A stretch of 63,047 nucleotides of DNA, counting the filler, from Babesia bigemina (lineage: Eukaryota): the NCBI RefSeq assembly GCF_000981445.1. It is 6 parts of 6 records of this genome, joined end to end, with 100 filler letters (N's around TTAATTAATTAA, not from the genome) between each part and the next. Parts side by side here need not be neighbours in the genome. Positions count along the whole stretch, not along the records: positions 1 to 17,434 come from NW_012237197.1; positions 17,535 to 19,886 come from NW_012237198.1; positions 19,987 to 24,132 come from NW_012237199.1; positions 24,233 to 33,582 come from NW_012237201.1; positions 33,683 to 59,559 come from NW_012237202.1; positions 59,660 to 63,047 come from NW_012237205.1. One strand, written 5' to 3'. Under the pieces are notes generated by a model. That model did no database searches. It was given only the letters and a program-made list of their open reading frames with translations, and was not told the origin of the DNA. The translations under genes were made by a program, and so were the position numbers. Of this stretch, positions 5,610 to 61,450 are shown piece after piece. The stretch's first letter is position 1, and every line of letters starts with the position of its first letter.

Positions 5610-5970
5610 ATCAACTTGGTCAGCACTTTGGTCAGCACTTTGGTCAACACCTTGGTCAACACGTTGGTCGTGGCATTGGTCACCACGTTGGTCACCACGT
5701 TGGTCAACACGTTGGTCAGCACGTTGGTCACCACGTTGGTCAGCACGTTGGTCAGCACTTTGGTCAGCACGTTGTTCATCACTTTGGTCAGCACATTGGT
5801 CAGCACTTTGGTCACCACTTTGGTCAACACTTTGGTCACCACTTTGGTCAGCACCTTGGTCAGGTGCTTGGTCACCACCTTGGTCATGGCATTGGTTATG
5901 ACATTGGTCAGCACTTTGGTCAGCACGTTGGTCAACACTTTGGTCACCACTTTGGTCAACACTTTAGTTA
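5610..5970 (-). repeat. 12-bp minisatellite array
   Basis: Tandem TTGGTCAGCACT / TTGGTCACCACG variants. Confidence 0.95.
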
Positions 5971-6087
5971 ACTACTACACAATCACACACAACGATTGAT
6001 GAGTGATGCAACAGATTAAAGCACAAATCATAAGTTAGGTGAGTAGGTGATGCTAGGTGAGTGTAGGTAGTAAACACGTGAGTACGA

Positions 6088-9000
6088 TTACGGTTGCAGG
6101 TAAAACACCCTGTTAAGCTTGTTGACACGTGCGGCGGCGAGGAGTGATTGAGCGGCTATCCTATGACTCGAGGGACTATGTAGATGCGATTTGATGTGGA
6201 GGAGGTCGAGGCGGATGACCATGATGTGGAGGAGGTAGAGGAAGGAGAGGAGCCAGAGTGCGAGGGTTAGTGTCATGAAGGGGAAACGGATTGTGTATAT
6301 GAATTTGTCAATAGAGTGGAACAGTTGCATCAATACGGATTCTCCGTCGAGAACTTTCTTTAATGCGTTGCACAAATCGTTACACGTCCTCTTGTAGTCC
6401 ACATCATCGGTTCCACTCAGCTTCTTGCGGTCCACTAAAGTGAATCCGTATGTGCACAAAACCGACGATGTAGATGGGCAGTTTATTATGGAATCACACA
6501 ACGAGTGATGCGTAGATCCTGGCGATTTCTCGTTTGCCTTACATTTCTTCGGACATTTAGCGACACGGCATTTAGGCGTGGCACCGCCACATTTAGAGTT
6601 GCATTCCTCATACATTTTTTGAAGCAAGATGTAGAAAGTCTCTGTCAGATACACCATCCACGAAACGTATTTATCAGCGTGCTTAAACGAGAATGTGGCA
6701 CTGATATCATTACTCAAGGGACTCAAGTATTTACCGCACGTGGCCGCTGTTTTAGAGCTACATACGAGGCTGATAAGGTCACCTGATGTATGCGTCTTTG
6801 ATTTCCCAGAGTGACTAGAGTTAAATACAGAAGCGACATTCAACTCGTCATATGGGCGTTGCAGATTGGCTTTGGTCACTGCTTCGTCAAAAGCCTCTTT
6901 CTTGTGCTTCTTACCACCGTCATTCCACGTTGTTATAAACAGGTGATAAAACGCAAACATGTCACCCAGAGTCTGCGGCGGTCTACCTAGTACGCATACT
7001 AGAGAGGAGCAGAGTACAGTGAGTGGTGAGGACGGAGTGCCACAGAACTCCTTCAGTACTTTGTACAGTCTCGAACCCTTGCTTGTATGCGACGCCGTGA
7101 TGCTGATGTCGGCAAATCCCATTGGCGTTTTGCAAGGCTTGCCGAAATGGTTTGGTGCTGAACATGACAGCTTGCAGTCAGCCTTGTTATACGGATGAGG
7201 AAGGAAACCGGGAAGACCATCCTCCAAAAAGAATTGTAACGGTGACTTAACACCGCACTTAGGGTGTTGCTTGCACGTTTGGTTAGCTGTTTGGTCAGCT
7301 ATTTGCTTGCAGTTTTGGTCAGCACACTGCTTCTCATTGCACTTCCAACTTGAGCCGCCAACACCTTGCCCATACCAACACTCCGCCCATCCGCTGTATT
7401 GCGTCGAATTACTGCACTGCTCGTACAGGAAGCGCAACTGATGGAACAGTCTGTACAACAGTTCCACCAATACATCTAGACACTTAGCTGCGCTGGACGG
7501 ATATGCCAACTTGCCCGCGTTGGTGTAGAAATCGCAGGCGTAAATACCGTCATTATGCCCGTAGCCGAGGATGGATAGCAAAACGTCTTCTGCGTAGGTG
7601 GTGACTTCGGTGAGTTTGTCGGCCAGCGACGCGGCTGTGATGTCCTTCGGGTAGGCTGGCAGGGTGTCTGCTTCCTCACCTTCGAAAGTCGGACCGTCAT
7701 CGTCGGCGGTGGCGTCGCCTATCTTTTCCTCCTTCTCGAAGAGGCCACTGAAACCGTCGTAGGATAATGCGTGATACACCGGGTTATACGGAAGCCCGTT
7801 GAGCCAAAGCAATATGTCGAACACGGAAGAGGGATGCCGAGGTCTAGGATGAACAACGAGGTGACCGACGTGATTGTAGGCGTCCAGGTAATAGAACAGT
7901 CTCGACAGTAGACCTTCGTATTTTCTGTAATGCGCCAGGTATTCTTTGTAGGTTCCCAAGTTTTCTGGGTTCTCGTTGAAAGATTGGTAACGAGCGAATC
8001 CTCTGCTCATTCTGAGGGCGACTTCCTTACCGGTTTGATCCTTCAGCTGATCGATGTCATACCCCTCCTCCTGCAAATACTTTTTCAATTCATCCGCCTT
8101 TCGGGCACTTTTTGCGTTGCCGGTAACTTTGTAATCCGTCCACTCCGTAGCGCCCTTGTAGAACAGATGGTGGAGACCGTGGAAGTATGCCGGCCCGATG
8201 GTCAAAAACGCTTTTGCGCAATTGTTTACAGCCTTCTCATCGTGCTCCCACCTAACATTTGCGCCATCATACCTCGAGATATACACCTTGCCCAGCGCGC
8301 CGACCAACTCCCGGCAGCCACCGGAGACACCTTGCAGCATGGCAGTGACCGGGTTGGGGAAGCCGTCCGTTGTCAAGTCGGCAACGGCGGCGGTGAGATC
8401 GTCGAGCTTGGTAGGGAGATCGCGGTCGTATTTGTTGGAGGTGTAAACATGGCTGATCAGTCCGCTAAGGGCGGCATAGAGTTTGGTGAGTTTAGAGGTA
8501 TACGGATCCTGGGACCTGGGGAGTGAGGGATGCTTCTTATGTTCCTCCTCGTCAAGCCGGTTGATCTCGCTGTCGATGTACGATTTAACTGGTGCGAAGA
8601 ATGTCTCTAGGCTACGGCACAGAGTTGGAATGTCGGAGTTACTAAGAAGCCTGTTCACGTTGTCGCCGGAGTCGTTGCCGTTGAACGCCTCCATGAACCC
8701 CTTCAGGCCGATGTGCTGGTCGTGTTCGATTTGCGTTGGTAATTCTGACAACTCCAGCTTTACTTTCTCCACAAACTGCTCCAGTAGCCATTTTATGGAG
8801 TCAACGTACCGTCTGCGGGCGTGGGTTGTCAGGGCTGTTTCGGCCACGTTCACTTGTGTCTTGAGGTAACGTTGCATAGCTTGAACGTAGTGCTTTTCAG
8901 TAACTTCGGCATCTTTAAGGAATTTTTCAACGGCTTTGATAGGGCCGGACTCTAGATCACTTCGCAAATGACCCAGCTCGCTATGAATCTTATTGATGCT

Positions 9001-11638: not shown

Positions 11639-12418
11639 CTAACTTGGTCACCACGTTGGTCACCACGTTGGTCAGCACCTTGGTTGACACGTTGGTCAAC
11701 ACGTTGGTCAACACATCGGTCAACACGTTGGTCAGCACGTTGGTCAGCACTTTGGTCAGCACATTGGTCAGCACATTGGTCACCACGTTGGTCACCACGT
11801 TGGTCATGGCATTGGTCACCACTTTGGTCATGGCATTGGTCACCACTTAGGTCAACACTTTGGTCAGCACATTGGTCAGCACATTGGTCACCACGTTGGT
11901 CACCACGTTAGTCGTGGCATTGGTCATGGCATTGGTCAGCACGTTGGTCACCACGTTAGTCGTGGCATTGGTCATGGCATTGGTCAGCACTCTGGTCAGC
12001 ACATTGGTCAGCGTTTAGGTCAACACTTTGGTCAGCACCTTGGTCAGCACATTGGTCAACACGTTGGTCAACACATTGGTCAACACTTTGGTCAGCGCCT
12101 TGGTCATGGCATTGGTCAGCACATTGGTCAGCACTTTGGTCATGGCATTGGTCATGGCATTGGTCAGCACTTAGGTCAGGTGCTTGGTCACCACTTTGGT
12201 CAACACTTTAGTCACCACTCTGGTCATGGCATTGGTCAGCACTTTGGTCAGTTGTTTGGTCAGCACATTGGTCATGGCATTGGTCAGCACTTTGGTCATG
12301 GCATTGTTCAGCACTTTGGTCAGCACCTTGGTCAGCACTTTGGTCAACACTTTGGTCAACACGTTGGTCAGCACCTTGATCACCACGTTGGTCAGCACAT
12401 TGGTCACCACTTTAGTTA
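11639..12418 (-). repeat. 12-bp minisatellite array
   Basis: Tandem TTGGTCAGCACA / TTGGTCATGGCA variants. Confidence 0.95.
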
Positions 12419-12537
12419 ACTATTACACAGTCACATACAACGATTAATGAGTGATTCAAAACATTAGATGACAATTCGTAGGTTAGGTGAGTAGGTGATA
12501 TGCTAGGTGAGTGTAGATAGTGAACACGTGAGTACGA

Positions 12538-16642
<4,105 letters not shown>

Positions 16643-16987
16643 TTAAGCCAGCCCCGACACCCGCCAACACCCGCTGACGCGCCCTGACGGGCTTGTCTGC
16701 TCCCGGCATCCGCTTACAGACAAGCTGTGACCGTCTCCGGGAGCTGCATGTGTCAGAGGTTTTCACCGTCATCACCGAAACGCGCGAGACGAAAGGGCCT
16801 CGTGATACGCCTATTTTTATAGGTTAATGTCATGATAATAATGGTTTCTTAGACGTCAGGTGGCACTTTTCGGGGAAATGTGCGCGGAACCCCTATTTGT
16901 TTATTTTTCTAAATACATTCAAATATGTATCCGCTCATGAGACAATAACCCTGATAAATGCTTCAATAATATTGAAAAAGGAAGAGT

Positions 16988-20027: not shown

Positions 20028-20850
20028 GGATGTAGAGTGGATAAAGGAGCGATGTAGAGTGGGTTAGGGAGCGATGTAGAGTGGATAAGGGGCGATGTAG
20101 AGTGGATAAGGGAGCGATGTGGAGTGGGTTAGGGAGCGATGTAGAGTGGGTTAAGGGGCGATGTAGAGTGGATTAGGGAGCGATGTAGAGTGGATAAAGG
20201 GGCGATGTAGAGTGGATAAAGGAGCGATGTGGAGTGGATAAAGGAGCGATGTAGAGTGGGTTAGGGAGCGATGTAGAGTGGGTTAAGGGGCGATGTAGAG
20301 TGGGTTAGGGAGCGATGAAGAGTGGATAAAGGGGCGATGTAGAGTGGGTAAGGGAGCGATGTAGAGTGGGTTATGGAGCGATGTAGAGTGGATTAAGGGG
20401 CGATGTAGAGTGGATAAAGGAGCGATGTAGAGTGGGTAAAGGGGCGATGTAGAGTGGGTAAGGGAGCGATGTGGAGTGGATGATAAATACCACTCTGATC
20501 ACCATGTCATCGCTGCCGTGACCATGTCATCGCTGCCGTGTCCATGTCATCGCTGCCGTGACCATGTCATCGCTGCCGTGTCCATGTCATCGCTGCCGTA
20601 ACCATGTCATCGCTGCCGTGACCATGTCATCGCTGCTGTGTCCATGTCATCGCTGCCGTGACCATGTCATCGCTGCCGTGACCATCAACTTGGTCAACAC
20701 GTTGGTCAGCACGTTGGTCAGCACGTTGGTCATGGCATTGGTCAGCACCTTGGTCACCACTTTGGTCACCACTTTGGTCATGGCATTGGTCACCACTCTG
20801 GTCATGGCATTGGTCAGCACTTTGGGCAGCATCTTGATCAGCATTTTAGT
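20028..20850 (-). repeat. Composite array: 22-mer (20028-20481), 20-mer (20500-20685), 12-mer (20686-20850)
   Basis: Same three units in the same order as elsewhere; the conserved start motif of a further minus-strand gene is visible at ~19990-20024. Confidence 0.93.
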
Positions 20851-20969
20851 TTACTGTTACACAATCACATACAACGATTAATGAGTGATACAACAGATTA
20901 AAGCACAATTCATAAGTTAGGTGAGTAGGTGATGCTAGGTGAGTGTAGACAGTAAACACGTGAGTACGC

Positions 20970-23900
20970 TTATGGTTGTAGATAAAACACCCTGCCCAGT
21001 TTGTTAACACGTGCCGCGGCGAGTAGTGATTGAGCAGCGATGCGATGACTCGAGGGACTATGCAAATGCGATTTGATGTGGAGCAGGTCTAGGCGGATGA
21101 CCATGATGTGGAGGAGGTATAGGAGAGAGAGGAGCCAGAGGGCGACGTTGAGCCAGATGAAGGGGGAGCGGATTTTGAATAGGAAGTGGTCGCACGTGTC
21201 GAACAGGTTCTTGAAGTACTGCGATTTTAGGACAGCAGTTAATTGATTATAGAAATCATGGCATTGCTTGTTGGCATCGAGCGCATTTGGGTCACCAAAT
21301 GCAAAGCCATATCTGTAAAATGTTGGTGAAACACCCTTACATTTTACCATGGATGAGCATTTGCAATGCGGTTGGCCTGGTACATTTTCCTTCGGCTCAT
21401 CACTCTTTCCATGTTCGCCGCGTTTGCACTTGCTGCTGTTAAGGCAACTACGACAGCCCCAGTCTGCGCAGAAGATATTGCAAAAGTCGTCACATAGATT
21501 CTTGAGATACTCCCAGAACGTCCATGGAAGGTACACCGCCCAGGACACGTATGTGTCACAGTGTTTCATGGCGAAGTAACAATATGCATCTTCGGCTAAG
21601 GGATATATATAGGGAGCGCAGTTAACATTTTTCTTTTTGCCTTTACATGTGTCGGTGGTTGTTAGGGTCGTAAGATGAGGATGTTCGCAGTCGGTGTGAG
21701 TTGCAGACTTAGAACCGTAGGCGTCAACCAGTGCTTTAGTAAAGACAGTGCTATCAGTTTGCAGTTGAATGGAGAGGTTGTTAACAGATGCCTCAAATGC
21801 GGATCGCATATCACTCAGGTTCATGCGTTTACTTGACCCACAGCTGTTAGCAAGCGACTGGACGAAACTGAAATGCTCCGGTAAGGTGGACGGCGGTTTC
21901 GGAATTAGGCACAGCAAACCATTGAGATGGGTATTAGCAAAGAATTTCCTTATGATGTGACATATGTCTCCACCCGTCTTAGTGGAACCGGAGAATCCCC
22001 TGAATCCAAGCGGCGTAAGACAGGGCATACCTTTCTTGGATGTTGAAGGGCAATTGAGGCACTCGTACCTGCAACCAATTTTGCTAAGTTGGTGAGGTAG
22101 ATGCCCCGGTAAGCAATCGTTAAGATAGGACATTAACGGGGAAGTTGGTCGGCAATTTGCTTGGCTGTTTACTTGGCACTTTGGTTGGTCATTTGGTTTG
22201 CCGTTTGGTTGGCACGCTGCTTTGTCTTCTGAGTGGTCGATACACTGCGATTTGCCTGAAGCAATATCTTTGCCGTACATACAATCGCGCCAACCAAAGT
22301 TGTATGCGGCATAGCTACACTGGCCGAGCAGGAATTTTAGCGGCGGGAACAAGCGGCGTAATATGTCGAGCAACATGTCGAAGCAATCTTCGCCGCTTTG
22401 GGGGTAGTGGAATTTCATGGAATTATTCGACAAGTCAGACGCGTAGGTGGTGAACTCGTCTCCTGTTCCGGCTATTGTGGTTAAAACATCGTACGCGTTT
22501 GCACATATGTCAGTTACCGCTGTTCGCATATCTTCATATGATACGTTACGTGGGTAAGCTTCCAAGGGTACCGTTTGGTTATTCACCAATGATATCTTAA
22601 AATTGTCGCCAACTACTGGTTCTATTTCTAACCCGTCGACCACTTCATCTACATCTTCCTTGCCCCTTTTATACAGCTCTTCCAAAATATGCGTGATAGC
22701 TGCGTCTAGCTTAACGTGACGTACAGGGTTGTGCGTAAGTCCAGATAGCCAAACTAACATATCGTAAACGGAACATGGATGCCTCTTTGATGTTAGAGTA
22801 GACAGGTGACCTACTTCGTTATATTGGTCCAAGTGATGGTACAGGCAATCAAGAATATTGCTAATATCGAAATGTGTTTTTTCCTTCGGCTTACCTGTCT
22901 TAATATCTTGATTCGATTCGCACGCTTTGATGTGATCAAAAACCGTACCGCGTTCTAATTTATTCTCCACGAGCTTTTCAAGAATATTTGCACCGGTGAA
23001 CTTATACTTGCACTGCAGCTCCCCGTCCTGATGCGACTTCTGACTGGTAGGAACAATGTAACCGCAATGCTTGAGGAACTCACCAAGGGGGTTTTCTTTG
23101 TCAATTTCATCCTTTAGATGAATGGCTTTCCCTTGCCAACTATGTTCACACCTCCTCTTCAACTCCCCGAGGTCCTCCACCCACATCGGCAGGCAGCTCA
23201 TAAACACCTTGGCGCAGCGCGTAGCGTCGACGGTTAATTCGTCGGTAACTTTTTTCTCCTTGATAACTTTCCACTCCATCTTAGGATGCCCATCATACCT
23301 ACTCACATACGCCTTTTCCATCTCCGCTACCAGCCCTTGCATCCCTGCCTTCAGCGCATCCAGGAGTTGCGGGTGGTGCGGGTTCGCGAAGTCAGCGGGG
23401 TCGAACGTGGACAGGGCGGAGGTCAGCTCGTGGAGGTGGGAGCGGAATTCGGCGTCGAAGGTGAAGGTGCGATTGTTGTCGTGGAGGTGGGTGAGGAGGT
23501 CGTAGGTGCGGGCTTGGAGGCCGGCGACCAGTTGGGAGGAGGGGGAGGCTTCGGTGGAGATGTGGGTAAAGAGGGGATTGAAATAGAAATCAAGATGTTT
23601 TGACAAATCTTTCACGCTTGGATATCTCAGTGGATCAATGTACGACTGAAGGTTGCTGCCAATAGTGTTCATCAGACCCTTGAGGCCGGTTGTCTGATTT
23701 GTGAAAATAGTCTTACTGATGATATTTTTCTGGTAGTGAACGAACTTTTTCAGCTCCTCTAACTCGGCAGTTTTACGGGTTACAAACTGCGAGAGGGCCG
23801 ATTTTTTAAGGGTCTTGATTTTTTCGGTGACTTCGTATTTGACTTTGGCGGTGATGTCGGAAATGCATTCATTGATTCTATTTGGAATGGCAGTACTGTT

Positions 23901-30514: not shown

Positions 30515-30659
30515 TTGTATTCACGTTTGTAATTCACAGCAACTCACGTAACGACTCACCTACTCACCTAACCGACAAACGTAGTCTAATGTCTCGAATT
30601 ACTCTAGCGGCAACCTGGGAACTAGATAGCGTTGAGATTAAGTGATGACTGAACGACAA

Positions 30660-31229
30660 AGAAACATGGTAACCTAGCACCCAAGCAAAGTGCTAAGCTG
30701 GCAACCAGGCAAAGTGCTGAGCTAGCAACCAGGCAAAGTGCTGAGCTAGCAACCAGGCAAAGTGCTAAGCTGGCAACCAGGCAAAGTGGTAACCTAGCAA
30801 CCAGGCAACGTGGTAAGCTAGCACGCAGGCAACGTGGTGACCTAGCAACCAGGCAACGTGTTGACCTAGCAACCAGGCTAAGTGCTAAACTAGCAACCAG
30901 GCAAAGTGGTAAGCTAGCATCCAGGTAAAGTGGTAAACTAGCAACCAGGCTAAGTGGTAAGCTAGTAACCAGGCAACGTGTTGACCTAGCAACCAGGCAA
31001 AGTGCTAAGCTAGCAACCAGGCAAAGTGCTAAGCCAGCACCCAGGCAACGTGTTGACCTAGCACTCAGGCAAAGTGCTAAGCTAGCACTCAGGCAAAGTG
31101 CTAAGCAAGCATCCAGGCAAAGTGGTAAGCTAGCACCCAGGCAAAGTGCTAACCTAGCACCCAGGCAAAGTGCTAACCTAGCACCCAGGCAAAGTGCTAA
31201 CCTAGCACCCAGGCAAAGTGGTAAGCTGG
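30660..31229 (+). repeat. 21-bp minisatellite array
   Basis: Tandem CCAGGCAAAGTGCTAAGCTAGCA-type units. Confidence 0.95.
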
Positions 31230-32724: not shown

Positions 32725-32770
32725 TTACAATCATCTAACTGGCAACTGACATCTAATGTTATAGACAGTA

Positions 32771-32929
32771 ATGATTGCGTTGATGATCAATCGCATGAGC
32801 AGCGAGGTGACTACCTCCCCCGCCCCTTACATCATCGCCTCCGTCGCTTTCATCATCGTCGTCATCTGCGTCATGATCTACTTCCGCATTCGGCCGTTCC
32901 ACAGGGTGCGGTATCTACTGCGCAGCTAG
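32771..32929 (+). CDS. 52-aa ORF or alternative exon duplicating the TM and tail of the upstream gene
   Basis: MIALMINRMSSEVTTSPAPYIIASVAFIIVVICVMIYFRIRPFHRVRYLLRS*, translated by hand (below ORF-track cutoff). Confidence 0.45.
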   Translation: MIALMINRMSSEVTTSPAPYIIASVAFIIVVICVMIYFRIRPFHRVRYLLRS

Positions 32930-33298: not shown

Positions 33299-33582
33299 GT
33301 GACCAACGTGCTGACCAATGCCATGACCAGAGTGGTGACCAATGCCATGACCAAAGTGCTGACCAAAGTGATGACCAACGTGGTGACCAGAGTGGTGACC
33401 AAGGTGATGACCAAAGTGCTGACCAATGCCATGACCAACGTGCTGACCAATGCCATGACCAAAGTGTTGACCAATGCCACGACCAAAGTGGTGGCCTATG
33501 TGCTGACCAAGGTGCTGACCAAAGTGCTGACCAATGTGCTGACCAACGTGATTACCAAGTTATGGTCACGGCAGCGGTGACA
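33299..33582 (+). repeat. 12-bp array followed by the start of a 20-bp array
   Basis: GACCAAAGTGCT / GACCAATGCCAT units, then GGTCACGGCAGCGGTGACA. Confidence 0.92.
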
Positions 33583-40727: not shown

Positions 40728-40869
40728 TTGTATTCACACTTGTAATTCACATCAACTCACGTAACTACTCACCTACTCACCTAACCGACAAACGTAGTCT
40801 AATGTCTCGAATTACTCTAGCGGCAACCTGTGAACGAAATAGCACCTAGATTAGGTGATGACTAAACGA

Positions 40870-41158
40870 CAAAGCAATGTGTTGACCTAGCAACCAGGCA
40901 AAGTGCTATGCTAGCAACCAGGCAAAGTGCTAACCTAGCACGCAGGTAAAGTGCTAAGCAAGCAACCAGGCAAAGTGCTGAGCTGGCAACCAGGCTAAGT
41001 GCTGAGCTGGCAACCAGGCAAAGTGCTAAGCTAGCACCCAGGCAAAGTACTAAGCAAGCAACCAGGCAAAGTGCTAAGCTGGCACACAGGCAAAGTGCTA
41101 AGCTAGCACCCAGGCAAAGTGCTAAGCTAGCAACCAGGCTAAGTGGTAAGCTGGCACC
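40870..41158 (+). repeat. 21-bp minisatellite array
   Basis: CCAGGCAAAGTGCTAAGCTAGCA-type units. Confidence 0.95.
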
Positions 41159-46600: not shown

Positions 46601-49302
46601 AATTAGCACCCCTGCCTCAACAAATTGAGTATGAGAAATTCACCGGTTTCAAAGGATTCATGAATGCATTGCACGACTCAATGACTTCTACTATTGGTAA
46701 TAGACTAGATAAAGAGAAGGTACGTGACTTATCGTCAGCCTTACAATTATTCTGGACACCACTCAACGAGTATCTGCTGGGAGAAATTAAACGAGTTCAC
46801 GAAGCAAATAACGAGAAGACCAATCCCAAGCCATCTGGCGACGGACAACTATACACCTCCAAGATTGATTCCGTTACTAATGAACTAAACATTCTGCTAA
46901 ATCATCTTTGTGAACATAATAGGTACGACTACCGTGTTCCTCGTATGCTCGAAATCCTCTTAGGAGAAGCTCAAGGTCTCCACCCTGAGTCCTTTTCTCA
47001 GCCGAACACTCCGCTGCTAGAAACCATTGCCCACGGCTTCCGGGGTCTGGTTGGTGTACTTGGACAGGCCTACATCTCCGCGTACGACAGTGAGACCATC
47101 CAATGGACAGAAACTGCCCTTAGCACCGGTTTAACACAAGACGCTCACCGCTGCGCCAAAATATTCTTGACCGCTTTTTCCACAATTTACGATGCTGTGC
47201 ATGACTTGAGGATAAATTGCAATAGTCTGAGGGGACACCAAATTCACTCGTCCTCTGATCTCGGCGGATTGTTCCTACGGCACGGCTTTAAGGTGTCCGC
47301 AGAAAACAAACAGCACTGGGAGCTGCAGAACAAGAGCGTCATAAACGGTGAATACGTCGCGAACAGACTTAGCTTTAGGGTCGAAGGTGCGAAAGACAAC
47401 GAGCATCTTAAGGAGTGCGAATCGAATAAACGCAAGTCTAACGTCCTTTTTAATCTTTTCGATATTCTCAAATGCATTCTGCATCACGTCGACCAGTACA
47501 ACGCCATATGTCACATCGCTATACTCCCCAAACCTAGAACGCCATGTACCGTTTTCGAGATGCTGGCGTGGCTCTCAGGGCTCACTTACACTTCCGCGTA
47601 CCAGGCGCTGCTATCAGACGGGTTCACCAACGTGCTTGATAATCCGGATACGCCGCTTGCTGGCGACGGAGAGATCAGCGTATTCGACATCGAGCAGTCA
47701 TACCTAGAGGCGCACCCGCAGACCATCACGTATAAGAGCATACGGACGGTGTTGCAATACCTTTGTTCGAAATCGTACGATTTGCTTACCACCGTTGTTG
47801 GCCACGGCGACGCGGCGACATTCTACGCTTGCGACTATTCGAATAACACGCTGAATCTGTACTACCCGAGCTCCGGCGAAGATTGTTTGCAGATGTTGCT
47901 TGACTTCCTCCGTAGAATTTTGCAGCCGCTCAGGTATTTGTTTGAACGATGCAGTGTCGCAGACAAGAACTACGGATGGGCCGACTGCCACTACGGCAGG
48001 GACGTACCTACGACCAAATCGCACTGCAACATCAAGCCAACGGACGATGTAACGTGCCTACCAAACTGTCAACCAAATTGCAAACCAAATTGTCAACCAA
48101 CATCGCCATTGATGAACTACCTAAGTGACTCTCTACTCGGCTACCTGCCACATAGATTGGAGTCTGTTGGATGCAAATCTAAATGCTCCACCTGCCCCTC
48201 CACATCCAGGCTGGGAATGCCGTGCGTCACACCGCTGGGTTTCAGGGCGTTCTCCGGGTCGACCAAAACAGGCCGTCAGCTATGTGAGATAATTCGCGAA
48301 TTCTTAGGTAGTGGCGTGGTTTCATCATTGTTTGGCTTGTCACCAACTCCGCCGAAAACGCTGCCGGAGCATTTCAGTTTCGGGTTAAGCTTGGTTAATA
48401 AGTGGGTCAAAGTTGCATCTTATATTACTGATGCAGGTATAAAACCAGTATCACAAACTAAGATTGAAGCATCTATTCAGACGCTCTCCATTAAGCTCTG
48501 CACTGACACGGGTAAGCTTACCAATGTACTTCGTGACGCTTATGGCAGCAGTCAGCATGAGCACCAAGATCAAAATCATCTCGAAGTCTATGCCGATGTA
48601 TCTAGCCTATGCATGACTAGAAGTTGCACCGACAGGGATATGCGCTGCGCTCCATACCTATCCACACTGTGTTCGGACACGTATCAATACCTTGTTCATA
48701 AGAACTTTGCCACGTACCTTACATGGGCTGTCTACCTGCCGTGGGATTTCTGGAATCAACTGAATAATTTGTGTAACGCATTCAAGAACATTTTCTGCCA
48801 AGACTGGGGATGCCATACGTGTCTGCGTGCTGAGAAATGTAAGCGTGGACAGCATGGCCTCGTCGAGAAAGTTGAGAATCAACCTGACAAGCCTCATTGC
48901 AATTGTCCATCGATGGTTCAGTGCAAGGGTGTATCCGCAACACTGTACCAGTTCGGTTTCTGTTTTGGTAACGCGGCGACATTAAATAACGAGGCATCGG
49001 CTAAGAAGTGTTCTGATTTCTGCTCTCAGCTGGACAAGGTGTTGAAATCGGAATATTTTGTTAAGCTGTTCAAAGAATGTGACATATTCATTTGGACTAT
49101 CAGAGAACCGTTCACCTACTTGGTTCTCGCGCTCTGGTCACTATCCCTCTTCTACCTCATCTGCGTCATGGTTGGCAGACTGGATGTGCTCCACATCCGC
49201 TCACACCTGAGATCACCATCATCGCACAGGATAACGGCGCAGTCATTGTTGGCTGCTGCGCAAGTCGGAAGGCTTGCCAAGATATCGTACCTTCAACCGT
49301 GA
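43696..49302 (+). CDS. ves1: ves1/VESA1-like protein, 1868 aa (class II tail), uninterrupted from leader ATG
   Basis: MTSINH leader, SDLDRLCD, GFRAFSGS, LPEHF, TM, AQVGRLAKISYLQP. Confidence 0.88.
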   Translation: MTSINHYNNLCPVTLHFPASTSCHCPDHVPPRELGEKFHENKKCEITSNNNPTNILNNLCSGLETFLGFNSANKGYNGTGIVYSDLDRLCDGVMGFLSGVLSNIYKHLGQHKNTLNDAITSLNTNKHLGKKGFNAAIVKVVAGVRGYNDKVKRSNDDIKRPIETLLTHVNEEVMKKVSAILNDNAASGQNTYSDKDIEKVKRAVTEATNLVKTCIDSSNAYLFGIDSQRKNINDLNHELKLNVHNVTKHVKHESGRLHDLAWKAKGDLEAMDKVINDKLKTVKENVNCRIKIEVNELVENLKLKVSAILIQLKQISENLADSLSNLELWMEKTKHMIDNAVAKLDLIINKTVGRENREFITSMTEQIGRDVKQLHSAGQDAKNRVAALVRDAHLKVRELQTALQFDLGTIKDEIRSKVSKVVSAIVSLGRQFYDGSIKTPTNIEEIITHIQGEVKSIKGHVGEPREPGNLKPTDGSVYQNWEEFKKNLKDLVNQIKGESVGRGVNGKGIEHIKTGVIKYAASYKESKGEDTGFAKISKDWVTEVVGTKAVKKWLDKYIEDNIFNTYFNGELSARGRDSLGTYVIKKVTEHIQEVAGKIEPDKTFAENNGLEDYLPYVKNYLKKFATDVVNKRDEIIRAFEGQVLHDVQVVSFVKSGRHNNTNLKLAVQATLGVLSVLAERVAKQLEAFIDERQINLGGNVTHISSKVDEIEEHVDIRARKYTNALGYAIDKALQNVRGAINTLSGQVDQALEGGSVPGRETSDSAAAYVDKKIKQVTDTLDEQLPWDPAVVAYNTRGVKLEKLTRYETGAADSRKGKKKELEDAITIIDTDVKRILQPLDTFNENALDQFKVVTSKLSAFMEDYSSAANEIKTILQTIRTERIDNRLLNYIKNGIATLRTVRLNAVINKAEQFPDEADVFQNNCVDVLEKHVENEVNIAHTAILYTARRHYITTIQLLLQSFASKVHSELAPLPQQIEYEKFTGFKGFMNALHDSMTSTIGNRLDKEKVRDLSSALQLFWTPLNEYLLGEIKRVHEANNEKTNPKPSGDGQLYTSKIDSVTNELNILLNHLCEHNRYDYRVPRMLEILLGEAQGLHPESFSQPNTPLLETIAHGFRGLVGVLGQAYISAYDSETIQWTETALSTGLTQDAHRCAKIFLTAFSTIYDAVHDLRINCNSLRGHQIHSSSDLGGLFLRHGFKVSAENKQHWELQNKSVINGEYVANRLSFRVEGAKDNEHLKECESNKRKSNVLFNLFDILKCILHHVDQYNAICHIAILPKPRTPCTVFEMLAWLSGLTYTSAYQALLSDGFTNVLDNPDTPLAGDGEISVFDIEQSYLEAHPQTITYKSIRTVLQYLCSKSYDLLTTVVGHGDAATFYACDYSNNTLNLYYPSSGEDCLQMLLDFLRRILQPLRYLFERCSVADKNYGWADCHYGRDVPTTKSHCNIKPTDDVTCLPNCQPNCKPNCQPTSPLMNYLSDSLLGYLPHRLESVGCKSKCSTCPSTSRLGMPCVTPLGFRAFSGSTKTGRQLCEIIREFLGSGVVSSLFGLSPTPPKTLPEHFSFGLSLVNKWVKVASYITDAGIKPVSQTKIEASIQTLSIKLCTDTGKLTNVLRDAYGSSQHEHQDQNHLEVYADVSSLCMTRSCTDRDMRCAPYLSTLCSDTYQYLVHKNFATYLTWAVYLPWDFWNQLNNLCNAFKNIFCQDWGCHTCLRAEKCKRGQHGLVEKVENQPDKPHCNCPSMVQCKGVSATLYQFGFCFGNAATLNNEASAKKCSDFCSQLDKVLKSEYFVKLFKECDIFIWTIREPFTYLVLALWSLSLFYLICVMVGRLDVLHIRSHLRSPSSHRITAQSLLAAAQVGRLAKISYLQP

Positions 49303-49447
49303 TCATCGTCACATTTGTAATTCACGTAACTACTCACTTAGCGAATCACCTACTCACCTAAATAACAAACGTAGTCTAATGTCTCGAATTACTCTAGCGG
49401 CAACCTGTGAACTAAATAGCACCTAGATTAGGTTATGACTGATAGAC

Positions 49448-50528
49448 AAAGCTAAGTGCTTAGCTAGCATCCAAGCTAAGTGCTAAGCAAGCACACAAGT
49501 TACGTGTTAACCTAGCACCCAGGCAAAGTGCTAAGCTAGCATTCAGGCAAAGTGCTAAGCTAGCACCCAGGCAAAGTGCTAAGCTAGCAACCAGGCAAAG
49601 TGGTAAGGTAGCAACCAAGTTAAGTGCTAAGCAAGCACACAAGCAACGTGTTGACCTACCATCCAGGCAACGTGCTGACCTAGCAAACAGGCGAAATGGT
49701 AAGCTAGCAACCAGGCGAGGTGCTAACCTAGCAACCAGGCAACGTGTTAAGCTAGCAGCCAGGCAAAGTGCTAACCTAGCATCTAGGCAAAGTGCAAAGC
49801 TAGCACCCAGGCAAAGTGCTAAGCTAGCACCCAGGCAAAGTGCTAAGCTAGCACACAGGCAAAGTGGTAAGCTAGCACTCAGGCAAAGTGCTAAGCAAGC
49901 ATCCACGCAACGTGTTAAGCTGGCAACCAGGCAAAGTGTTGACCTAGCAACCAGGCAAAGTGCTAAGCTAGCAACCAGGCAAAGTGCTAAGCTAGCAACC
50001 AGGCAAAGTGCTAACCTAGCACCCAGGCAAAGTGCTAACCTAGCACCCAGGCTAAGTGCTAACCTAGCAGCCAGGCGAGGTGCTAACCTAGCAACCAGGC
50101 AACGTGTTAAGCTAGCAGCCAGGCAAAGTGCTAACCTAGCATCTAGGCAAAGTGCAAAGCTAGCACCCAGGCAAAGTGCTAAGCTAGCACCCAGGCAAAG
50201 TGCTAAGCTAGCACCCAGGCTAAGTGCTAACCTAGCAGCCAGGCAAAGTGCTAAGCTAGCACCCAGGCTAAGTGTTGACCTAGCACCCAGGCTAAGTGCT
50301 AAGCTAGCATCCAGGCAAAGTGCTAAGCTGGCAACCAGGCAACGTGTTGACCAATGCCATGACCAAAGTGCTAAGCTAGCACTCAGGCAAAGTGGTGACC
50401 TAGCACCCAGGCAAAGTGGTAAGCGAGCACTCGAGCTAAGTGCTAAGCAAGCACCCAGGCAAAGTGGTAAGCTAGCACACAGGCAACGTGTTGAGGTGGC
50501 ACCCAGGCAAAGTGTTAACCTAGCACCT
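49448..50528 (+). repeat. 21-bp minisatellite array
   Basis: CCAGGCAAAGTGCTAAGCTAGCA-type units. Confidence 0.95.
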
Positions 50529-54900: not shown

Positions 54901-57571
54901 ACAGGTCGCGCAGTCCTCGACGTCGACGCTAAATGGCGAAGCATATCTTCAGCAATTCCGACAATTATCGGAGAAATTCCACGCCTACTATAATAACGTT
55001 GACATTTATGTCGACAACCAAGTTAAAGATCCAACCTCCCCCCCGCCCACCGACCAAACCACCGACCCAGCCACCCAGCTAACCAAAATCAAAACTGACT
55101 TCGACAATTTACTTGGACATCTTAAAAGTAATGGTGATCGTAATAGAATATATAATTATGATAAAAAGTTCGTTGACCTACATTCTTCCCTCTCCACCTC
55201 CCTCCACCTCCTATCCCCCTCCGCCTTCGCCAACCCCCGGCACCCGGAGCTGCTCGATGCGGTCAGACAGGGGCTGCAGGGGTTTGTCGAGCAGATGGAG
55301 CGGGTGTATGTGAACGGGTATGATGGAGGGGAAGGGATTACATGGATGAAAAGTGATAATAAAACGTTAACCGACGATGCTGAAAAATGTGCCAAAATTT
55401 TTCTCACTTGTCTGCCGGGTCTGAACAAGCATCTCAACCACCTCCGGATGCATTGTGACAGGGATCCCAAAACAGGTCCTTGGAATAAATTACAGATCAA
55501 TAGAGCGAACACTAATAACATGATAGGCCTTTGGTTTGACTGCCGTGGTTACAGGGTTTCTTCGGAACAATCGAAGCAGGATGGAGAGTTGCGGAACAAA
55601 TCGGAGTGCAACGGTAATCATATTCACGGTTTCCTCGTTAACAAAAATGACAAAAATTATCTTTTCGAACACGATGAAGCCGATAAAGATAGTCGTCCAC
55701 TCAGAAAGCTTCTCGGCTACCTCAACACCTATTACCAGGTCACCCACCTGCAGCACATCTCGTCACCTAAGGCCCCGCGCAACGTGTATCAGATGCTCCA
55801 GTGGCTGAGTGGGCTGCAGTATAATGGTGTGTATGGTAAAATTCGAAACTATTTTGGCGATTTGTTTACTGAGCTGCAAAGTGATTACAAGTTAGCGAAA
55901 GCAGAGTTAGCCGTTACCAGGCCGCACGACCTGAGAGGTGTAGTAACAGACAATATAGTGCGATCAAGTTGCCTATCTACTGCACTTAGCAATGTTTGCA
56001 AATATGCCGAAGTTGTATTAATCGCCATTCTCGGCCACGGTCATGGCCATCCGCATAGCCGATACGCCGTTGACTTCAACACCAACGCGGATAATCTAGG
56101 CTATCCTAGTAGCGCCGCTTCATGCTTTGATATGCTGGTAGATATATCGTATCGAGTGTATCACCAACTGTGTTTCCTGCACAGACAGTGTGAAAATCAC
56201 GATGACAGCGGCGGCTGGCGATCATGTCATTACGGCAAGGGCGTCGATGGGTCATCATGGAACTGCAATACCACCAAATGTCCTAACCAAATATGTGACC
56301 AAAGAGCTAACCAAATTGCCCAGCAAAAGGCTGACCAAAAAGCTGACCAAACGTGTGACCAACACCCTAAGTGCGGTTTGAAATCGCCACTTCAGTCATT
56401 TTTGGAAGATGGTCTCCCCGGCTTCTTACCGCATCAGTTTACTAGTCCCGGTTGTAAGTTAACGTGCACTGTGGCCAATCATGGAGGCATCCCGTGCAAA
56501 ACTCCAATGGGCTTTACTGATCTAGCCACCATGGCGTCACGTTCGCAGACAGGCGAGGAACTCAAGAAGGCGCTGGAAGAATTCAGCGCCGAAATCCATG
56601 ATCCGCTTACCATTTTCTGCACCTTCCTAACATGTGTTCTCCGCAGGTCTCCGCAAACGCTGGGAGATATGTTTGCGTTCTTCTACGGTTATCTTCATCA
56701 TTTTGCCGAAAGTGAGCACAAGAAGAAAGCCTTTGATGCCGCCGTAAAGGATGCCATCTTTGGTCAGGAATACAATGATCTCAACCCATCAAAGATGTTT
56801 GGCACTAGTCGTCATGGTCAAGGTACGGAGCATTCCAGAGGTGACGTGTTCAGCATCGTCGAATGTTTTGCTGGCGACGAAGAAATATGTGGGTTCTACC
56901 TCCAGTCACTGAGCTTTAATATTTATAATATATTTTCGGAATGCCATAAGAACCACTATCTGTCATGGATTGTCTATCTCACAGAGACATTCTACAATCT
57001 TCTCTGCAAATTGCGTGACGACTGCCGCAATAATTGCAACAAGCCAGGAACCAGGTGTCAGGGTAAGATATGCGCTAAGAACTGTCAAGTACAATCTAGA
57101 TATAAAATCAAAAAGGAAGTGTGGGCGTGGACTATTAGTCACGAAAAGGATTGCCAATCCATCGCTCAGTGTCCGCTAACTCTACCCACATTAAATAGAT
57201 ATGGATTTGCATTTTGGAGTGCATATAGTCTTAGCAACAACAAGCATCAGAAAAGAACATGTGAAGACTTTTGCAAAGCATTGAATAATGTGCTGAGCGA
57301 CAAAGAATCGAAACACGCCCCTCTTGCCGAATTGGTATTCAGGACCATCCCCGAATTCCTTTTCAAAATCCGCGAACCCTTCATCTGGCTCAACGTCGCG
57401 CTCTGGCTCCTCTCCCTCCTCTATCTCCTCCACATCATGGTCATCCGCCTAGACCTCCTCCACATCAAATCGCATTTGCACTCACCATCATCACATCGCA
57501 TCGCTGCTCAGTCACTACTTGCTGCTGCTCGCGTTAACAAGCTTAACAGGGTGTTTTATCTGCAACCATAA
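51905..57571 (+). CDS. ves1: ves1/VESA1-like protein, 1888 aa (class I tail)
   Basis: MTSINH leader, LGELAGKLGGFVGES, SDLDRLCD, FLEDGLPGFLPH, TM, ARVNKLNRVFYLQP. Confidence 0.88.
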   Translation: MTSINHHNNLYLVTLPFPSSKSQALKSVEEKIVQLGELAGKLGGFVGESESVKKAVVKAIIAQINSNEELKNLYSSHVTTLSESVNSVGKADDTDEISELKQKVADQIKLLKERELQLQNQLKDPSSSPSPSADSAELHSKLEALRKVEKLCEFYEKLKTMPNEPKKLLENLCDGLQTFLGFDSASKGYDGSGIVYSDLDRLCDGVMGFLSGVLGAVKDDDAVKTYDKDTTKNINTVIKTLNDNIGSGRAGLVESVAEVKGWLEGYELEYSKKASNVTEFLGELKSNIAGKYTSQIRAGEKLTRQLEEWRRIVENIQSDIKTIETNYVIYLDDELRCKIRSEIILVKKSVEVLRDSACNISVNEQAKHVDTHLDEQKRNLEKAVTDGSENVKRTLQINFTKILDAMYDLREQRKHHFEKCYERLREANKHLKSRLDKYSGTTRDEIFRLFDEIIKEVKKIYGDMNYKKGELEMLVEGAEKTLSELSKNFEKDVKAGVKQDLTALNGNVNALKNGMRSISNGHEIVGKALTQLSASKQQLLRTTDPITQNSEALVGKYNEDLKKKFYTFAEALKAAKLDTFQTELQAESRKLRNYFENLMKISTIQKVSTSGRSEVKDLVEELNGAIGTINQRYDSLSTASLVVTTNAFASAVNTAAGAINRLGTIIKQEFTQAKQTIDDTKDNKELLTAVDELKNLQLLQNSIYGERGTADAPKTGSLAKLIEELSTAIGTTSGDDGGKLNKAIGAFETSAKQQIIDAATSAIEKAAAQVTAEMQKFREEDGGVFSKTELGKKVAVLKTHIKTLEGFIKEKTQGTLHLKLNEIQKDLDMLDKLKIEDTNEEHDGGINKMKKAADKKMQELYNEIFDKVNAVFNTLNDADRNLTHTIDIVSEGVHSAYAASTKSVENIKEYLLSVTSQAFDTVTSAVRILFSEQHVADLGGLKTLVDGQLRKMEQIIQKDRRTAIKGLLQNLNGRTYIVKAGKYPRFEMPSGTSMLDAIIQVAQSSTSTLNGEAYLQQFRQLSEKFHAYYNNVDIYVDNQVKDPTSPPPTDQTTDPATQLTKIKTDFDNLLGHLKSNGDRNRIYNYDKKFVDLHSSLSTSLHLLSPSAFANPRHPELLDAVRQGLQGFVEQMERVYVNGYDGGEGITWMKSDNKTLTDDAEKCAKIFLTCLPGLNKHLNHLRMHCDRDPKTGPWNKLQINRANTNNMIGLWFDCRGYRVSSEQSKQDGELRNKSECNGNHIHGFLVNKNDKNYLFEHDEADKDSRPLRKLLGYLNTYYQVTHLQHISSPKAPRNVYQMLQWLSGLQYNGVYGKIRNYFGDLFTELQSDYKLAKAELAVTRPHDLRGVVTDNIVRSSCLSTALSNVCKYAEVVLIAILGHGHGHPHSRYAVDFNTNADNLGYPSSAASCFDMLVDISYRVYHQLCFLHRQCENHDDSGGWRSCHYGKGVDGSSWNCNTTKCPNQICDQRANQIAQQKADQKADQTCDQHPKCGLKSPLQSFLEDGLPGFLPHQFTSPGCKLTCTVANHGGIPCKTPMGFTDLATMASRSQTGEELKKALEEFSAEIHDPLTIFCTFLTCVLRRSPQTLGDMFAFFYGYLHHFAESEHKKKAFDAAVKDAIFGQEYNDLNPSKMFGTSRHGQGTEHSRGDVFSIVECFAGDEEICGFYLQSLSFNIYNIFSECHKNHYLSWIVYLTETFYNLLCKLRDDCRNNCNKPGTRCQGKICAKNCQVQSRYKIKKEVWAWTISHEKDCQSIAQCPLTLPTLNRYGFAFWSAYSLSNNKHQKRTCEDFCKALNNVLSDKESKHAPLAELVFRTIPEFLFKIREPFIWLNVALWLLSLLYLLHIMVIRLDLLHIKSHLHSPSSHRIAAQSLLAAARVNKLNRVFYLQP

Positions 57572-57693
57572 TCGTACTCACGTGTTTACTAGCTACACTC
57601 ACCTAGCATATCACCTACTCACCTAACTTATGAATTGTGCTTTAATCTGTTGTATCACACATTAACCGTTGTATGTGATTGTGTAATAGTTAA

Positions 57694-58422
57694 CTAAAGT
57701 GCTGACCAAGCACCTGACCAAAGTGGTGACCAAAGTGGTGACCTAGTGAGTGACCAACGTGATGACCAACGTGTTGACCAAGTTGATGGACACGGCAGCG
57801 ATGACATGGTTACGGCAGCGATGACATGGTGACGGCAGCGATGACATGAACACGGCAGCGAAGTCTTGGTTACGGCAGCGATGACATGGTCACGGCAGCG
57901 ATGACATGGTTACAAGTGGTGATTATTATCCACTCTACATCGCCCCTTTATCCACTCCACATCGCTCCTTTATCCACTCTACATCGCCCCTAACCCGCTC
58001 CACATCGCTCCTTAACCCACTCTACATCGCCCCTTAATCCACTCTACATCGCTCCTCTATCCACTCTACATCGCTCCCTAACCCACTCTACATCGCTCCC
58101 TAACCCACTCTACATCGCTCCTTAACCCACTCTACATCGCCCCTTTATCCACTCTACATCGCTCCCTAATCCACTCTACATCGCCCCTTTATCCACTCTA
58201 CATCGCTCCCTAATCCACTCTACATCGCTCCCTAACCCACTCCACATCGCTCCCTAACCCACTCTACATCGCCCCTCTATCCACTCTACATCGCTCCTTA
58301 TCCACTCCACATCGCCCCTTTACCCACTCTACATCGCTTCTTTACCCACTCCACATCGCTCCCTAACCCACTCTACATCGCCCCTTTATCCACCCTACAT
58401 CGCCCCTTTATCCACTCCACAT
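57694..58422 (+). repeat. Composite array: 12-mer (57694-57782), 20-mer (57787-57913), 22-mer (57928-58422)
   Basis: Same units and order as the other intergenic regions. Confidence 0.93.
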
Positions 58423-59659: not shown

Positions 59660-59950
59660 GTGTCGGCTAGGTGCCCAAATGTGATATTAACGATGGCTAC
59701 ATCGCTGCATATAAATGCCATTTAACCAGGCCAACTCGGATTACGCCACCGTGCCAGTGACTCGCAACACACGACTTAGGTCACCCGCCGCGGCGCTCAC
59801 GGACGCCTACGTTAGCAACCAATCACCCAGCCTCACGTGACACTGACTCAATGGGCAACGCGGACACCTCTCACAGTCAACGCACAACTCAACTCACCAG
59901 ACAATCAACGTGCTACAACACCTACTAAATTACGGTTCATCCGCCAGCTT
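59660..59950 (-). repeat. Conserved non-coding element (copy of 31230-31513)
   Basis: Reverse-complement alignment by eye. Confidence 0.85.
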
Positions 59951-60270
59951 CGCACTTTGCCTTGATGCCAGCTTATCACTTTGCCTGGGTGCCAGCTTAA
60001 CACTTTGCCTGGCTGCCAGCTTAACACTTTGCCTGGTTGCTAGGTCAGCACGTTGCCTGGTTGCCAGCTTAGCACTTTGCCTGGCTGCCAGCTTACCACG
60101 TTGTCTGGTTGGTAGGTTAGCACTTTGCCTGTGTGCTAGGTCGCCACGTTGCCTGAGTGCTAGCTTAGCACTTTGCCTGGGTGCTAGGTCAACACTTTGC
60201 CTGGTTGCTAGCTTAGCACTTTGCCTGGTTGCTAGCTTAGTACTTTGCCTGGTTGCTAGGTTAGCACGTT
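59945..60270 (-). repeat. 21-bp minisatellite array
   Basis: Tandem TGCTAGCTTAGCACTTTGCCTGG-type units on + strand. Confidence 0.95.
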
Positions 60271-60415
60271 GGATTGTCGTTCAGTCATCACCTACTTTAG
60301 CTGCTATTTAGTTCACAGGTTGCCGCAAGAGTAATTCGAGACATTAGACTACGTTTGTCGGTTAGGTGAGTAGGTGAGTAGTTACGTGAGTTGATGTGAG
60401 TTACAAATGTGACGA

Positions 60416-61450
60416 TCACGGTTGTAGATACGATATCTTGGCAAGCCTTCCGACTTGCGCTGCAGCCAACAGTGACTGCGCCGTTATTTTGTTCGACGAC
60501 GGTATCCTCAGGTGTGACCTGATGTGGAGCACATCCAGTCTGCCAATCATGACGCAAAGGAGGTACAGGAGGGATAGTGACCAAAGTGCGAGGACCATGT
60601 AGGTGAACGGTTCTCTGATGGTCCAAATGAAGTTGTCACATTCCTCAAATAATTTGGTGAAGTATTGCGATTTTAGCAGATTACTCAGTTGTGTATTGAA
60701 ACTAAGGCAGAATTTTCTGTTAGTTCCATACAGCGTTTTTGCGTCGCCAAAAGTGAACCCGTACTGGTAGAACGTAGTCATCACTCCACGACAGCTTATC
60801 AGTGCCTTGCACTTGCAGCTGTACTCGACACCATGCTTTCCCGGCTTGCACGAACATTTCGTACAACCGGAGCCTCCACAATCCATTTGCTGGAACGCAT
60901 CGAGCAACGATTTAAGGTAACTGTAGAATGTCCACGGCAGATATACAGCCCATGACAGGTAGAGATCGGCGTGCTTTTTGGCGAGGTACGTGTACGCATC
61001 GGAAGATGTGGAGCAGAGGTAGGGAGCACAGTGAATATCTTTGTTATGAGGTAGATCACATGATTCTCTTGACAGGCTTGACAAGTCAGCCTCCGTAGAT
61101 TTGGAATGGTCCGAACTGTTGTGGCCCGTTTGGTTGCGATATGCATTCTGCAGCGCACCTGTGAGTTTGCTTGTCTCCTTGTATAGCTCGATTGAGAGCG
61201 CTTTCGTTTTCGTTTGAAAAGCTAAGCTGACATCACTAGCGGCTTTAGCGTTATCTAACATATTACTTAAGGTCAACGCAAATTGGAAGTGCTCTGGCAA
61301 CGTAGATGGCGGCTTGGGCAGCAGACCGAACAGCGTGTTAATATTAGAATTGTCGAGGAATTTGGTCAGCACGTTACATATGTCCTTACCTGTCTTCGTG
61401 CTTCCAGAGAAACCTCTGAAGCCAAGTGGTGTTATACATGGCGCACCACC
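60416..61450 (-). pseudogene. ves1: 3' remnant of a ves1/VESA1-like gene (class II tail) interrupted by a retrotransposon
   Basis: Frame reads GAPCITPLGFRGFSGSTKTG...LPEHF...AQVGRLAKISYLQP; ves homology stops at ~61447-61450 and an in-frame stop lies at 61463-61465. Confidence 0.85.

What the first reader, a model, noticed from the sequence alone, without database searches (positions are those of the whole stretch)
5610..60460. Downstream repeat type is perfectly coupled to the antigen C-terminal class
Seen: all four genes ending ARVNKL(N/G)(R/K)VFYLQP (stops at 6088, 12538, 20970, 57571) are followed by one ~120-nt 3' flank and the 12-mer array. All four ending AQVGRLAKISYLQP (30514, 40727, 49302, 60416) are followed by a different ~140-nt flank and the 21-mer array. 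Inference: tail, 3' flank and array move as one block and could act as a class barcode restricting recombination partners or regulation.
Basis: seen in the sequence. Interest (0 to 1): 0.7.

Follow-up and report, generated by a model that had tools for sequence, protein, structure and literature searches.

The report
Two swappable ves1b antigen gene ends
Eight surface-antigen genes of the cattle parasite Babesia bigemina end in one of two fixed blocks (membrane tail, 3' flank, repeat array) that likely travel together only because they lie side by side and are swapped onto many antigen bodies, so they are probably not a barcode that limits recombination.

Summary
The coupling is real, with one error. 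All 8 ves1b-type genes pair tail with flank and array: ARVNKL tails have a 123-125-nt flank and a 12-mer array; AQVGRL tails have a 142-147-nt flank and a 24-mer array (not 21-mer). The two ends are diverged homologues: both flanks hold the same invariant 16-nt motif, and one half of the 24-mer resembles the 12-mer. The class-specific block starts only about 55 codons before the stop. It does not fence off partners. On a tree of the upstream domain of 127 relatives, tail class changes 21 times (14 forced by strong branches), and both tails sit in both deep domain clades. Hybrid ends break at the two exact blocks the classes share, and a 12-mer array also follows a non-ves gene. Both tail types carry the published label ves1b (11 of 11 looked up), so this is a split inside ves1b that I did not find in print. 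Best reading: tight linkage of two ancient 3' cassettes too diverged to recombine internally, like the class-linked 3' flanks of Plasmodium rif genes. A regulatory role, especially for the shared 16-mer, is untested because no RNA data were available.

The parts
6088..6255 (-). A-type transmembrane + cytoplasmic tail (last 55 codons + stop) of a ves1b gene (ORF 6088-10860)
   Evidence: protein identical over 1496 aa to P0218, labelled ves1b
5965..6087 (-). A-type 3' flank, 123 nt; shared 16-nt motif at 6035-6050
5616..5964 (-). 12-mer array (about 29 copies)
4664..5611 (-). 20-mer then 22-mer arrays, shared by both classes, leading to the next ves1b start
12538..12705 (-). A-type tail
12413..12537 (-). 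A-type flank, 125 nt; 16-mer at 12483-12498
11644..12412 (-). 12-mer array (about 64 copies)
20970..21137 (-). A-type tail on a gene whose upstream Cys-rich domain is of the type found in the four B genes (discordant ectodomain)
   Evidence: alignment
20847..20969 (-). A-type flank, 123 nt; 16-mer at 20917-20932
20690..20846 (-). 12-mer array (about 13 copies)
57404..57571 (+). A-type tail
57572..57696 (+). A-type flank, 125 nt; 16-mer at 57611-57626
57697..57782 (+). 12-mer array (about 7 copies)
30347..30514 (+). B-type tail
30515..30659 (+). B-type flank, 145 nt; 16-mer at 30556-30571
30660..31227 (+). 24-mer array (about 23 copies), followed by unique sequence rather than the 20-mer
40560..40727 (+). 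B-type tail
40728..40872 (+). B-type flank, 145 nt; 16-mer at 40769-40784
40873..41156 (+). 24-mer array (about 11 copies), joined to the 20-mer array by an A-like junction
49135..49302 (+). B-type tail
49303..49449 (+). B-type flank, 147 nt; 16-mer at 49346-49361
49450..50527 (+). 24-mer array (about 45 copies) holding two 12-mer-type units at 50342-50365
60416..60583 (-). B-type tail of a 5'-truncated ves1b that abuts a LINE-like element
60274..60415 (-). B-type flank, 142 nt; 16-mer at 60362-60377
59946..60273 (-). 24-mer array (about 14 copies)
33300..33558 (+). Exception: 12-mer array behind a non-ves small membrane-protein tail, with a third flank that lacks the 16-mer

Best explanation
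B. bigemina ves1b genes end in one of two homologous 3' cassettes (last ~55 codons, flank with a shared 16-nt motif, 12- or 24-mer array) that likely stay intact because they are short and too diverged to recombine internally, while likely being swapped as whole units onto different antigen bodies. Shown: the anatomy, the 8/8 coupling, 61-67% identity between classes in the tail and 49-60% in the flank, repeated tail switches on the tree of the upstream domain, and hybrids that change class at the two exact shared blocks. Inferred: ectopic gene conversion or crossover resolves in shared sequence just upstream of the transmembrane segment, at the LHIKS block, at the 16-mer, or in the shared 20/22-mer arrays; so tail, flank and first array are inherited as a haplotype. 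On this reading the array type is a passenger marker of ancestry, spread by slippage, not a signal that picks partners.
For: Class-specific identity is confined to the last ~60 alignment columns in the window (within 0.87-0.97, between 0.68-0.70); gene 20970 joins a B-like Cys-rich domain to an A cassette. Among 137 fetched non-LREAIDW B. bigemina-type proteins, 58 have strict A tails, 69 strict B and 10 other; domain type by tail is 34/19/21/44 in the 118 classifiable, so 40 of 118 are discordant. The same seven residues (IWLNVAL) precede 16 A and 22 B tails. Tree of residues -450..-57: both tails in both deep clades, 21 label changes, 14 forced by branches with support of 95 or more. Only two exact blocks of 15 nt or more are shared between classes, at -116 and +37; P0034 and P0081 switch from B to A at the first, and one 76-nt contig of run X3 has A-type letters left of the 16-mer and a B flank right of it. 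12-mer units lie inside a 24-mer array, a 12-mer array follows a non-ves gene, and the 20-mer follows 4 of 4 A and 2 of 4 B arrays. Same-tail best-hit rate falls from 98% in the transmembrane part to 83-85% within 800 aa and 65-67% beyond, as linkage predicts.
Against: Tail class stays clustered on the tree (21 changes against a shuffled mean of 42; 0 of 500 shuffles as low), and after collapsing near-copy families same-tail best hits are still 0.68-0.71 at -500..-1200 aa against 0.51-0.52 shuffled. Domain type and tail are associated (odds ratio 3.7, p = 0.0008), though the two queries favoured concordant pairs. Neutral linkage does not explain why both cassettes persist at similar numbers (58 and 69), nor the invariant 16-mer (run of 16 invariant columns, 3 of 100,000 column shuffles). 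The X3 contig has only 13 class-specific letters on the A side, below the 31-letter bridging rule, and does not reach a tail. No genome was held, so flank-level discordance could not be counted genome-wide.
Confidence: 0.65

Rival explanations
1. Functional dimorphism: the two cassettes give any ves1b ectodomain one of two fates (mRNA stability or stage through the 3' UTR; trafficking or partner choice through the tail), and selection keeps tail and flank matched; the shared 16-mer would be a family-wide 3' UTR element.
For: Both classes are common and internally uniform (58 and 69 of 137); transmembrane part and tail end disagree in only 2 of 127 strict cases; the 16-mer is invariant in 8 of 8, 38-44 nt after the stop; no B. 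ovata-named protein is among the 127, and 63 of 78 ovata-like ends share a third tail. Precedent: the VSG 3' UTR 16-mer (PMC5698767, passages); rif A/B 3' UTR groups (PMC2257938, passages).
Against: No expression data. Four flanks fold no better than shuffles (z -0.35 to 1.86); no Rfam match. Invariance of the 16-mer also follows if it is a conversion breakpoint. Rarity of hybrids follows from low identity alone.
Confidence: 0.22
2. One reading: the array type directs pairing so that genes recombine only within their class.
For: Same-tail best hits 83-85% within 800 aa against 50-54% shuffled; 21 of 24 near-copy families have one tail type, and 7 of 119 near-copy links cross classes.
Against: Most of that signal near the tail disappears when near-copies are collapsed (0.55-0.61 against 0.50-0.51); at least 14 forced switches; three pairs 91-95% identical at -450..-300 carry opposite tails; longer arrays shared by both classes lie right next to the class arrays; 12-mer units occur inside a 24-mer array.
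Confidence: 0.08
3. The arrays are coding exons of separate or antisense transcripts, spliced at the donor-like GTGAGT words on the antisense strand of the flanks.
For: Periods are multiples of 3 with long open frames; ACTCAC occurs 2-4 times in the first 65 nt of each flank.
Against: In the frames open in both classes, unit-to-unit changes are mostly non-synonymous (16/111 and 19/173 sense; 9/136 and 26/214 antisense); the one frame with half synonymous changes in A (64/63) is full of stops in B.
Confidence: 0.03
4. Assembly artefact: collapsed repeats created the coupling.
For: The window is a concatenated draft with vector remnants.
Against: Tail and array are under 150 nt apart; the eight copies differ from each other; contigs from other runs show the same joins.
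Confidence: 0.02

Closest known systems
BbigVes1b family of Babesia bigemina (Jackson et al. 2014, PMC4066756; labels from Yamagishi et al. 2017, PMC5660447 Table S2)
   Same: Large single-ORF proteins with a Cys-rich C-terminal domain, one transmembrane segment and a short tail; 6 of 6 A-tail and 5 of 5 B-tail relatives looked up are labelled ves1b.
   Different: The A/B split lies inside ves1b. It is not the ves1a/ves1b split and not the ves1ba hybrids. Neither paper mentions it or any 3' array in the passages I saw; figures were not visible.
Plasmodium falciparum rif A/B subgroups (PMC2257938, passages)
   Same: [quoted passage not shown]
   Different: RIFIN classes differ along the protein and in localisation; here only the last ~55 codons are class-specific and the marker includes a minisatellite.
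B. bovis locus of active transcription (PMC2034396, section on VESA1)
   Same: [quoted passage not shown]
   Different: B. bovis alpha/beta are whole-gene classes in head-to-head pairs; the window genes are in tandem within contigs.
Trypanosoma brucei VSG 3' UTR 16-mer (PMC5698767, passages)
   Same: An invariant 16-nt word shortly after the stop of a variant antigen family.
   Different: Analogy only; sequence homology was not tested or claimed. The VSG motif is shown to stabilise mRNA; the Babesia motif is not even shown to be transcribed.

Membership tests
BbigVes1b (VESA1) | Conserved C-terminal domain homologous to annotated B. bigemina VESA1 | tested here: met
   Best hits 92-95% identical over the last 149 aa, named B. 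bigemina; 50-57% over 410 aa for the A query
BbigVes1b (VESA1) | Single transmembrane segment near the C-terminus | tested here: met
   19-residue hydropathy maximum 2.0-2.35 at -60 to -63 in the last 100 residues of 8 of 8
BbigVes1b (VESA1) | Published subfamily label ves1b | tested here: met
   P0218 (identical to gene 6088 over 1496 aa) and 10 further A/B-tail relatives labelled ves1b; one further cluster member had no label
BbigVes1b (VESA1) | Exposure on the infected red cell and antigenic switching | not testable with these tools
   No wet-lab or RNA data
BbigVes1ba hybrids | A tail equals the ves1a-type 3' end | tested here: not met
   None of 6 A-tail accessions is among the 14 ves1ba rows; all are labelled ves1b
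   Both tails in both domain clades; 14 forced switches
   12-mer array follows A tails in 4 of 5 cases and a non-ves gene in 1 of 5; 12-mer units inside a 24-mer array
3' UTR regulatory element (VSG-16-mer-like) | Invariant word at a fixed distance after the stop | tested here: met
   8 of 8, +38 to +44, no other match in the window
3' UTR regulatory element (VSG-16-mer-like) | Lies in the mRNA and affects its level | not testable with these tools
   Needs RNA data or a reporter

The most novel reading that the evidence does not exclude
ves1b genes use a two-state, plug-in 3' cassette: any ectodomain can be given either of two membrane tails together with a matched 3' UTR and array, setting its mRNA fate or its partner at the red-cell membrane, with an invariant 16-nt element serving both as a family-wide mRNA signal (like the VSG 16-mer) and as an exchange point.
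Probability: 0.2. Interest if true: 0.65.

Novelty: new member of a known kind. Interest (0 to 1): 0.3.

Why it matters
As described it is an ordinary result of linkage, but it adds a subdivision of ves1b that I did not find in print, two short class-specific markers, and one invariant motif common to all eight genes. These allow the two classes to be counted in RNA or population data and make the open question of how B. bigemina controls ves1 expression testable. If the cassettes proved functional, they would be a modular way to assign variant antigens to two fates.

Tried and rejected
No whole genome was held, so the genome-wide tail-versus-array table could not be made. A tail-plus-motif pattern found 0 matches in metagenome and prokaryote genome contigs. 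Run search: no RNA holder listed; no evidence either way on expression. Laid contigs are short and tables were cut (32 of 1046 and 24 of 680 pieces; 24 of 133 and 18 of 37 loose ends shown), so they cannot give a discordance rate. Run X3 had no cover on the B tail and X2 none on the B stretch; not used as evidence. My first idea, that A and B are ves1ba and ves1b, was rejected by the published labels. Pfam gave no family above its cut-off for 12 ORFs. No Rfam match; no unusual folding. Resemblance of the 24-mer to a coding repeat was weak (1 of 3 B genes above background). Motif searches in the supplements of PMC10463595 and PMC5660447 gave one unrelated-looking coding hit and none (long cells are cut). 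Earlier-finding look-ups returned nothing. Atlas search of the small Cys-rich protein gave only scores under 0.9. No complex or structure prediction was run, as no binding claim is made. Two papers asked for were not held.
Full report
What the window is. The large ORFs are variant erythrocyte surface antigen (ves1) genes: the C-terminal 149 aa of gene 60416 is 92-95% identical to proteins named Babesia bigemina. The window is six contigs joined by N44-12nt-N44 linkers, with cloning-vector ends on the first, so only order within contigs is meaningful. Within contigs, tandem genes run: stop, flank, 12- or 24-mer array, 20-mer array, 22-mer array, next start. Two B arrays run into a unique sequence instead, shared over 298 nt.

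Observation. All eight stops and tails are as stated. A tails have a 123-125-nt flank and a 12-mer array; B tails have a 142-147-nt flank and a 24-mer array. The two ends are homologous. Between-class identity is 0.61-0.67 in the last 57 codons and 0.49-0.60 in the flank, against 0.80-0.95 within class. A 16-nt word is exact in 8 of 8 flanks at +38 to +44 and has no other match in the window at up to 2 mismatches (expected 0.04). The first half of the 24-mer resembles the 12-mer unit (unit inventories).

Which classes are these? I first took them for Jackson's ves1b and ves1ba (PMC4066756; I read the abstract, sections 22 part 1, 25 and 26, a keyword search and the supplementary legends; figures not visible). 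The subfamily column of Table S2 of PMC5660447 rejects that: 6 of 6 A-tail, 5 of 5 B-tail and 2 of 2 LREAIDW-type proteins looked up are labelled ves1b, none ves1ba. The dimorphism is therefore inside ves1b.

How far does the block reach? In the window the class signal is confined to the last ~60 columns, and gene 20970 joins the B-like Cys-rich domain to an A cassette. I fetched 239 relatives (best 120 of 280 and best 120 of 386). Of these, 156 end like the window genes; I dropped 3 named B. ovata and set aside 16 LREAIDW-type, which have neither strict tail. Of the remaining 137, 58 have a strict A tail, 69 strict B and 10 other. Three window genes are in this set, and the two queries favour concordant combinations. 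Domain type by tail is X/A 34, X/B 19, Y/A 21, Y/B 44 in 118 classifiable proteins (odds ratio 3.7, p = 0.0008). On a tree of residues -450..-57 of the 127 strict proteins, both deep clades hold both tails; the label changes 21 times, 14 forced by strong branches, against 42 for shuffled labels. Best hits share the tail in 98% (transmembrane part), 83-85% (to -800 aa) and 65-67% (beyond), against 50-54% shuffled. With one protein per near-copy family (67 families) this drops to 0.55-0.61 near the tail and 0.68-0.71 at -500..-1200 aa, against 0.50-0.52. So there is linkage and some residual clustering, but no barrier.

Where do hybrids break? Only two exact blocks of 15 nt or more are shared by A and B cassettes in the window: the LHIKS codons at -116 and the 16-mer at +37. 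P0034 and P0081 have a B transmembrane part and switch to A at LHIKS. In run X3 a 76-nt contig matches the B flank from the 16-mer on with no differences over 63 nt and carries 13 upstream letters identical to two A flanks (3-5 differences from the four B flanks). A loose end with B-flank letters at the same motif appeared on the A reference; I infer it is the same record. This is weak evidence: it is under the 31-letter bridging rule and does not reach a tail. Two 12-mer-type units lie inside the 24-mer array of gene 49302, and a 12-mer array follows a non-ves gene at 33300. Concordant joins in other runs, among the pieces shown: X2 record 12 spans A tail, flank and 12-mer array; X2 record 13 and X4 record 31 bridge the A stop; X4 record 17 bridges the B stop; records of X1, X3 and X4 bridge B flank and 24-mer.

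Mechanism. Shown: two homologous cassettes, short, uniform within class, diverged between classes, attached to many ectodomains. Inferred from general knowledge that homologous exchange needs near-identical sequence, and from the evidence for ves1 recombination in PMC4066756: exchanges resolve outside the cassette or at its two shared blocks, so tail, flank and first array are inherited together. The 12-mer may derive from, or exchange with, a coding repeat about 1.2 kb upstream: A-specific 9-mers peak there in 2 of 3 X-type genes (6 and 7 hits against at most 2 elsewhere). The matching B signal is weak. The arrays are unlikely to code. What linkage does not explain is the similar abundance of both cassettes, the invariant 16-mer and the repeated ACTCAC words; these keep a regulatory reading alive at about 0.2.

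Comparison and novelty. Class-linked downstream sequence is known for Plasmodium rif genes (PMC2257938, passages); repeat blocks downstream of ves1 are described for the B. bovis expression locus (PMC2034396, keyword passages and part 1 of the VESA1 section); a conserved 3' UTR 16-mer stabilises VSG mRNA (PMC5698767, passages). I found no description of the A/B ends or arrays of B. bigemina in searches or in keyword passages of PMC4066756, PMC5660447, PMC6630957 and PMC10463595. Figures of these papers, one supplementary file of PMC4066756 and subscription papers on B. bovis ves1 were not visible and may bear on this. Verdict: a real, apparently unreported but mechanistically ordinary feature; interest 0.3.

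Noticed in passing
window 61447-63047 (-): LINE-like reverse transcriptase ORF (77% to a B. ovata RT, 53% B. caballi, 49% B. divergens) abuts ves1b gene 60416 where homology to intact relatives begins; likely an insertion into an antigen gene. LINE-like elements are reported for B. bigemina (PMC9141347, passages).
   Followed up: partly
window 31736-32246 (+): A 75-nt tandem repeat whose unit looks like a short exon plus a short GT...AG intron, directly upstream of a small Cys-rich membrane-protein ORF; possibly tandem micro-exons.
   Followed up: no
window 32215-33300 (+): Small Cys-rich transmembrane ORF followed by a ~205-nt duplication of its tail and flank and a third transmembrane tail, then a 12-mer array; no clear family (Atlas scores under 0.9). 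Its flank shares short words with ves flanks.
   Followed up: partly
first 65 nt after each of the eight stops: ACTCAC occurs 2-4 times in every flank (25 of 65 occurrences on either strand in the window); on the antisense strand it reads like a splice donor. Unexplained.
   Followed up: partly
window 1-495 and 16339-17434: Cloning-vector sequence fused to ves ORFs at both ends of the first contig, including a beta-lactamase-like fragment (identified by eye); the apparent truncation of ORFs 490-4512 and 12538-16368 is artificial.
   Followed up: yes
about 1.15-1.3 kb upstream of each stop (e.g. 7277-7305, 56296-56362): A short coding repeat differs by Cys-rich domain type (ADQ-like in 49 of 53 X-type, CQx in 50 of 63 Y-type strict proteins) and the X form resembles the 12-mer array unit.
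   Followed up: partly
runs X3, X4 loose ends on window 57625-57651: Letters of a third flank variant after the 16-mer, intermediate between A and B; may belong to the LREAIDW-type ves1b genes, which have neither strict tail.
   Followed up: no
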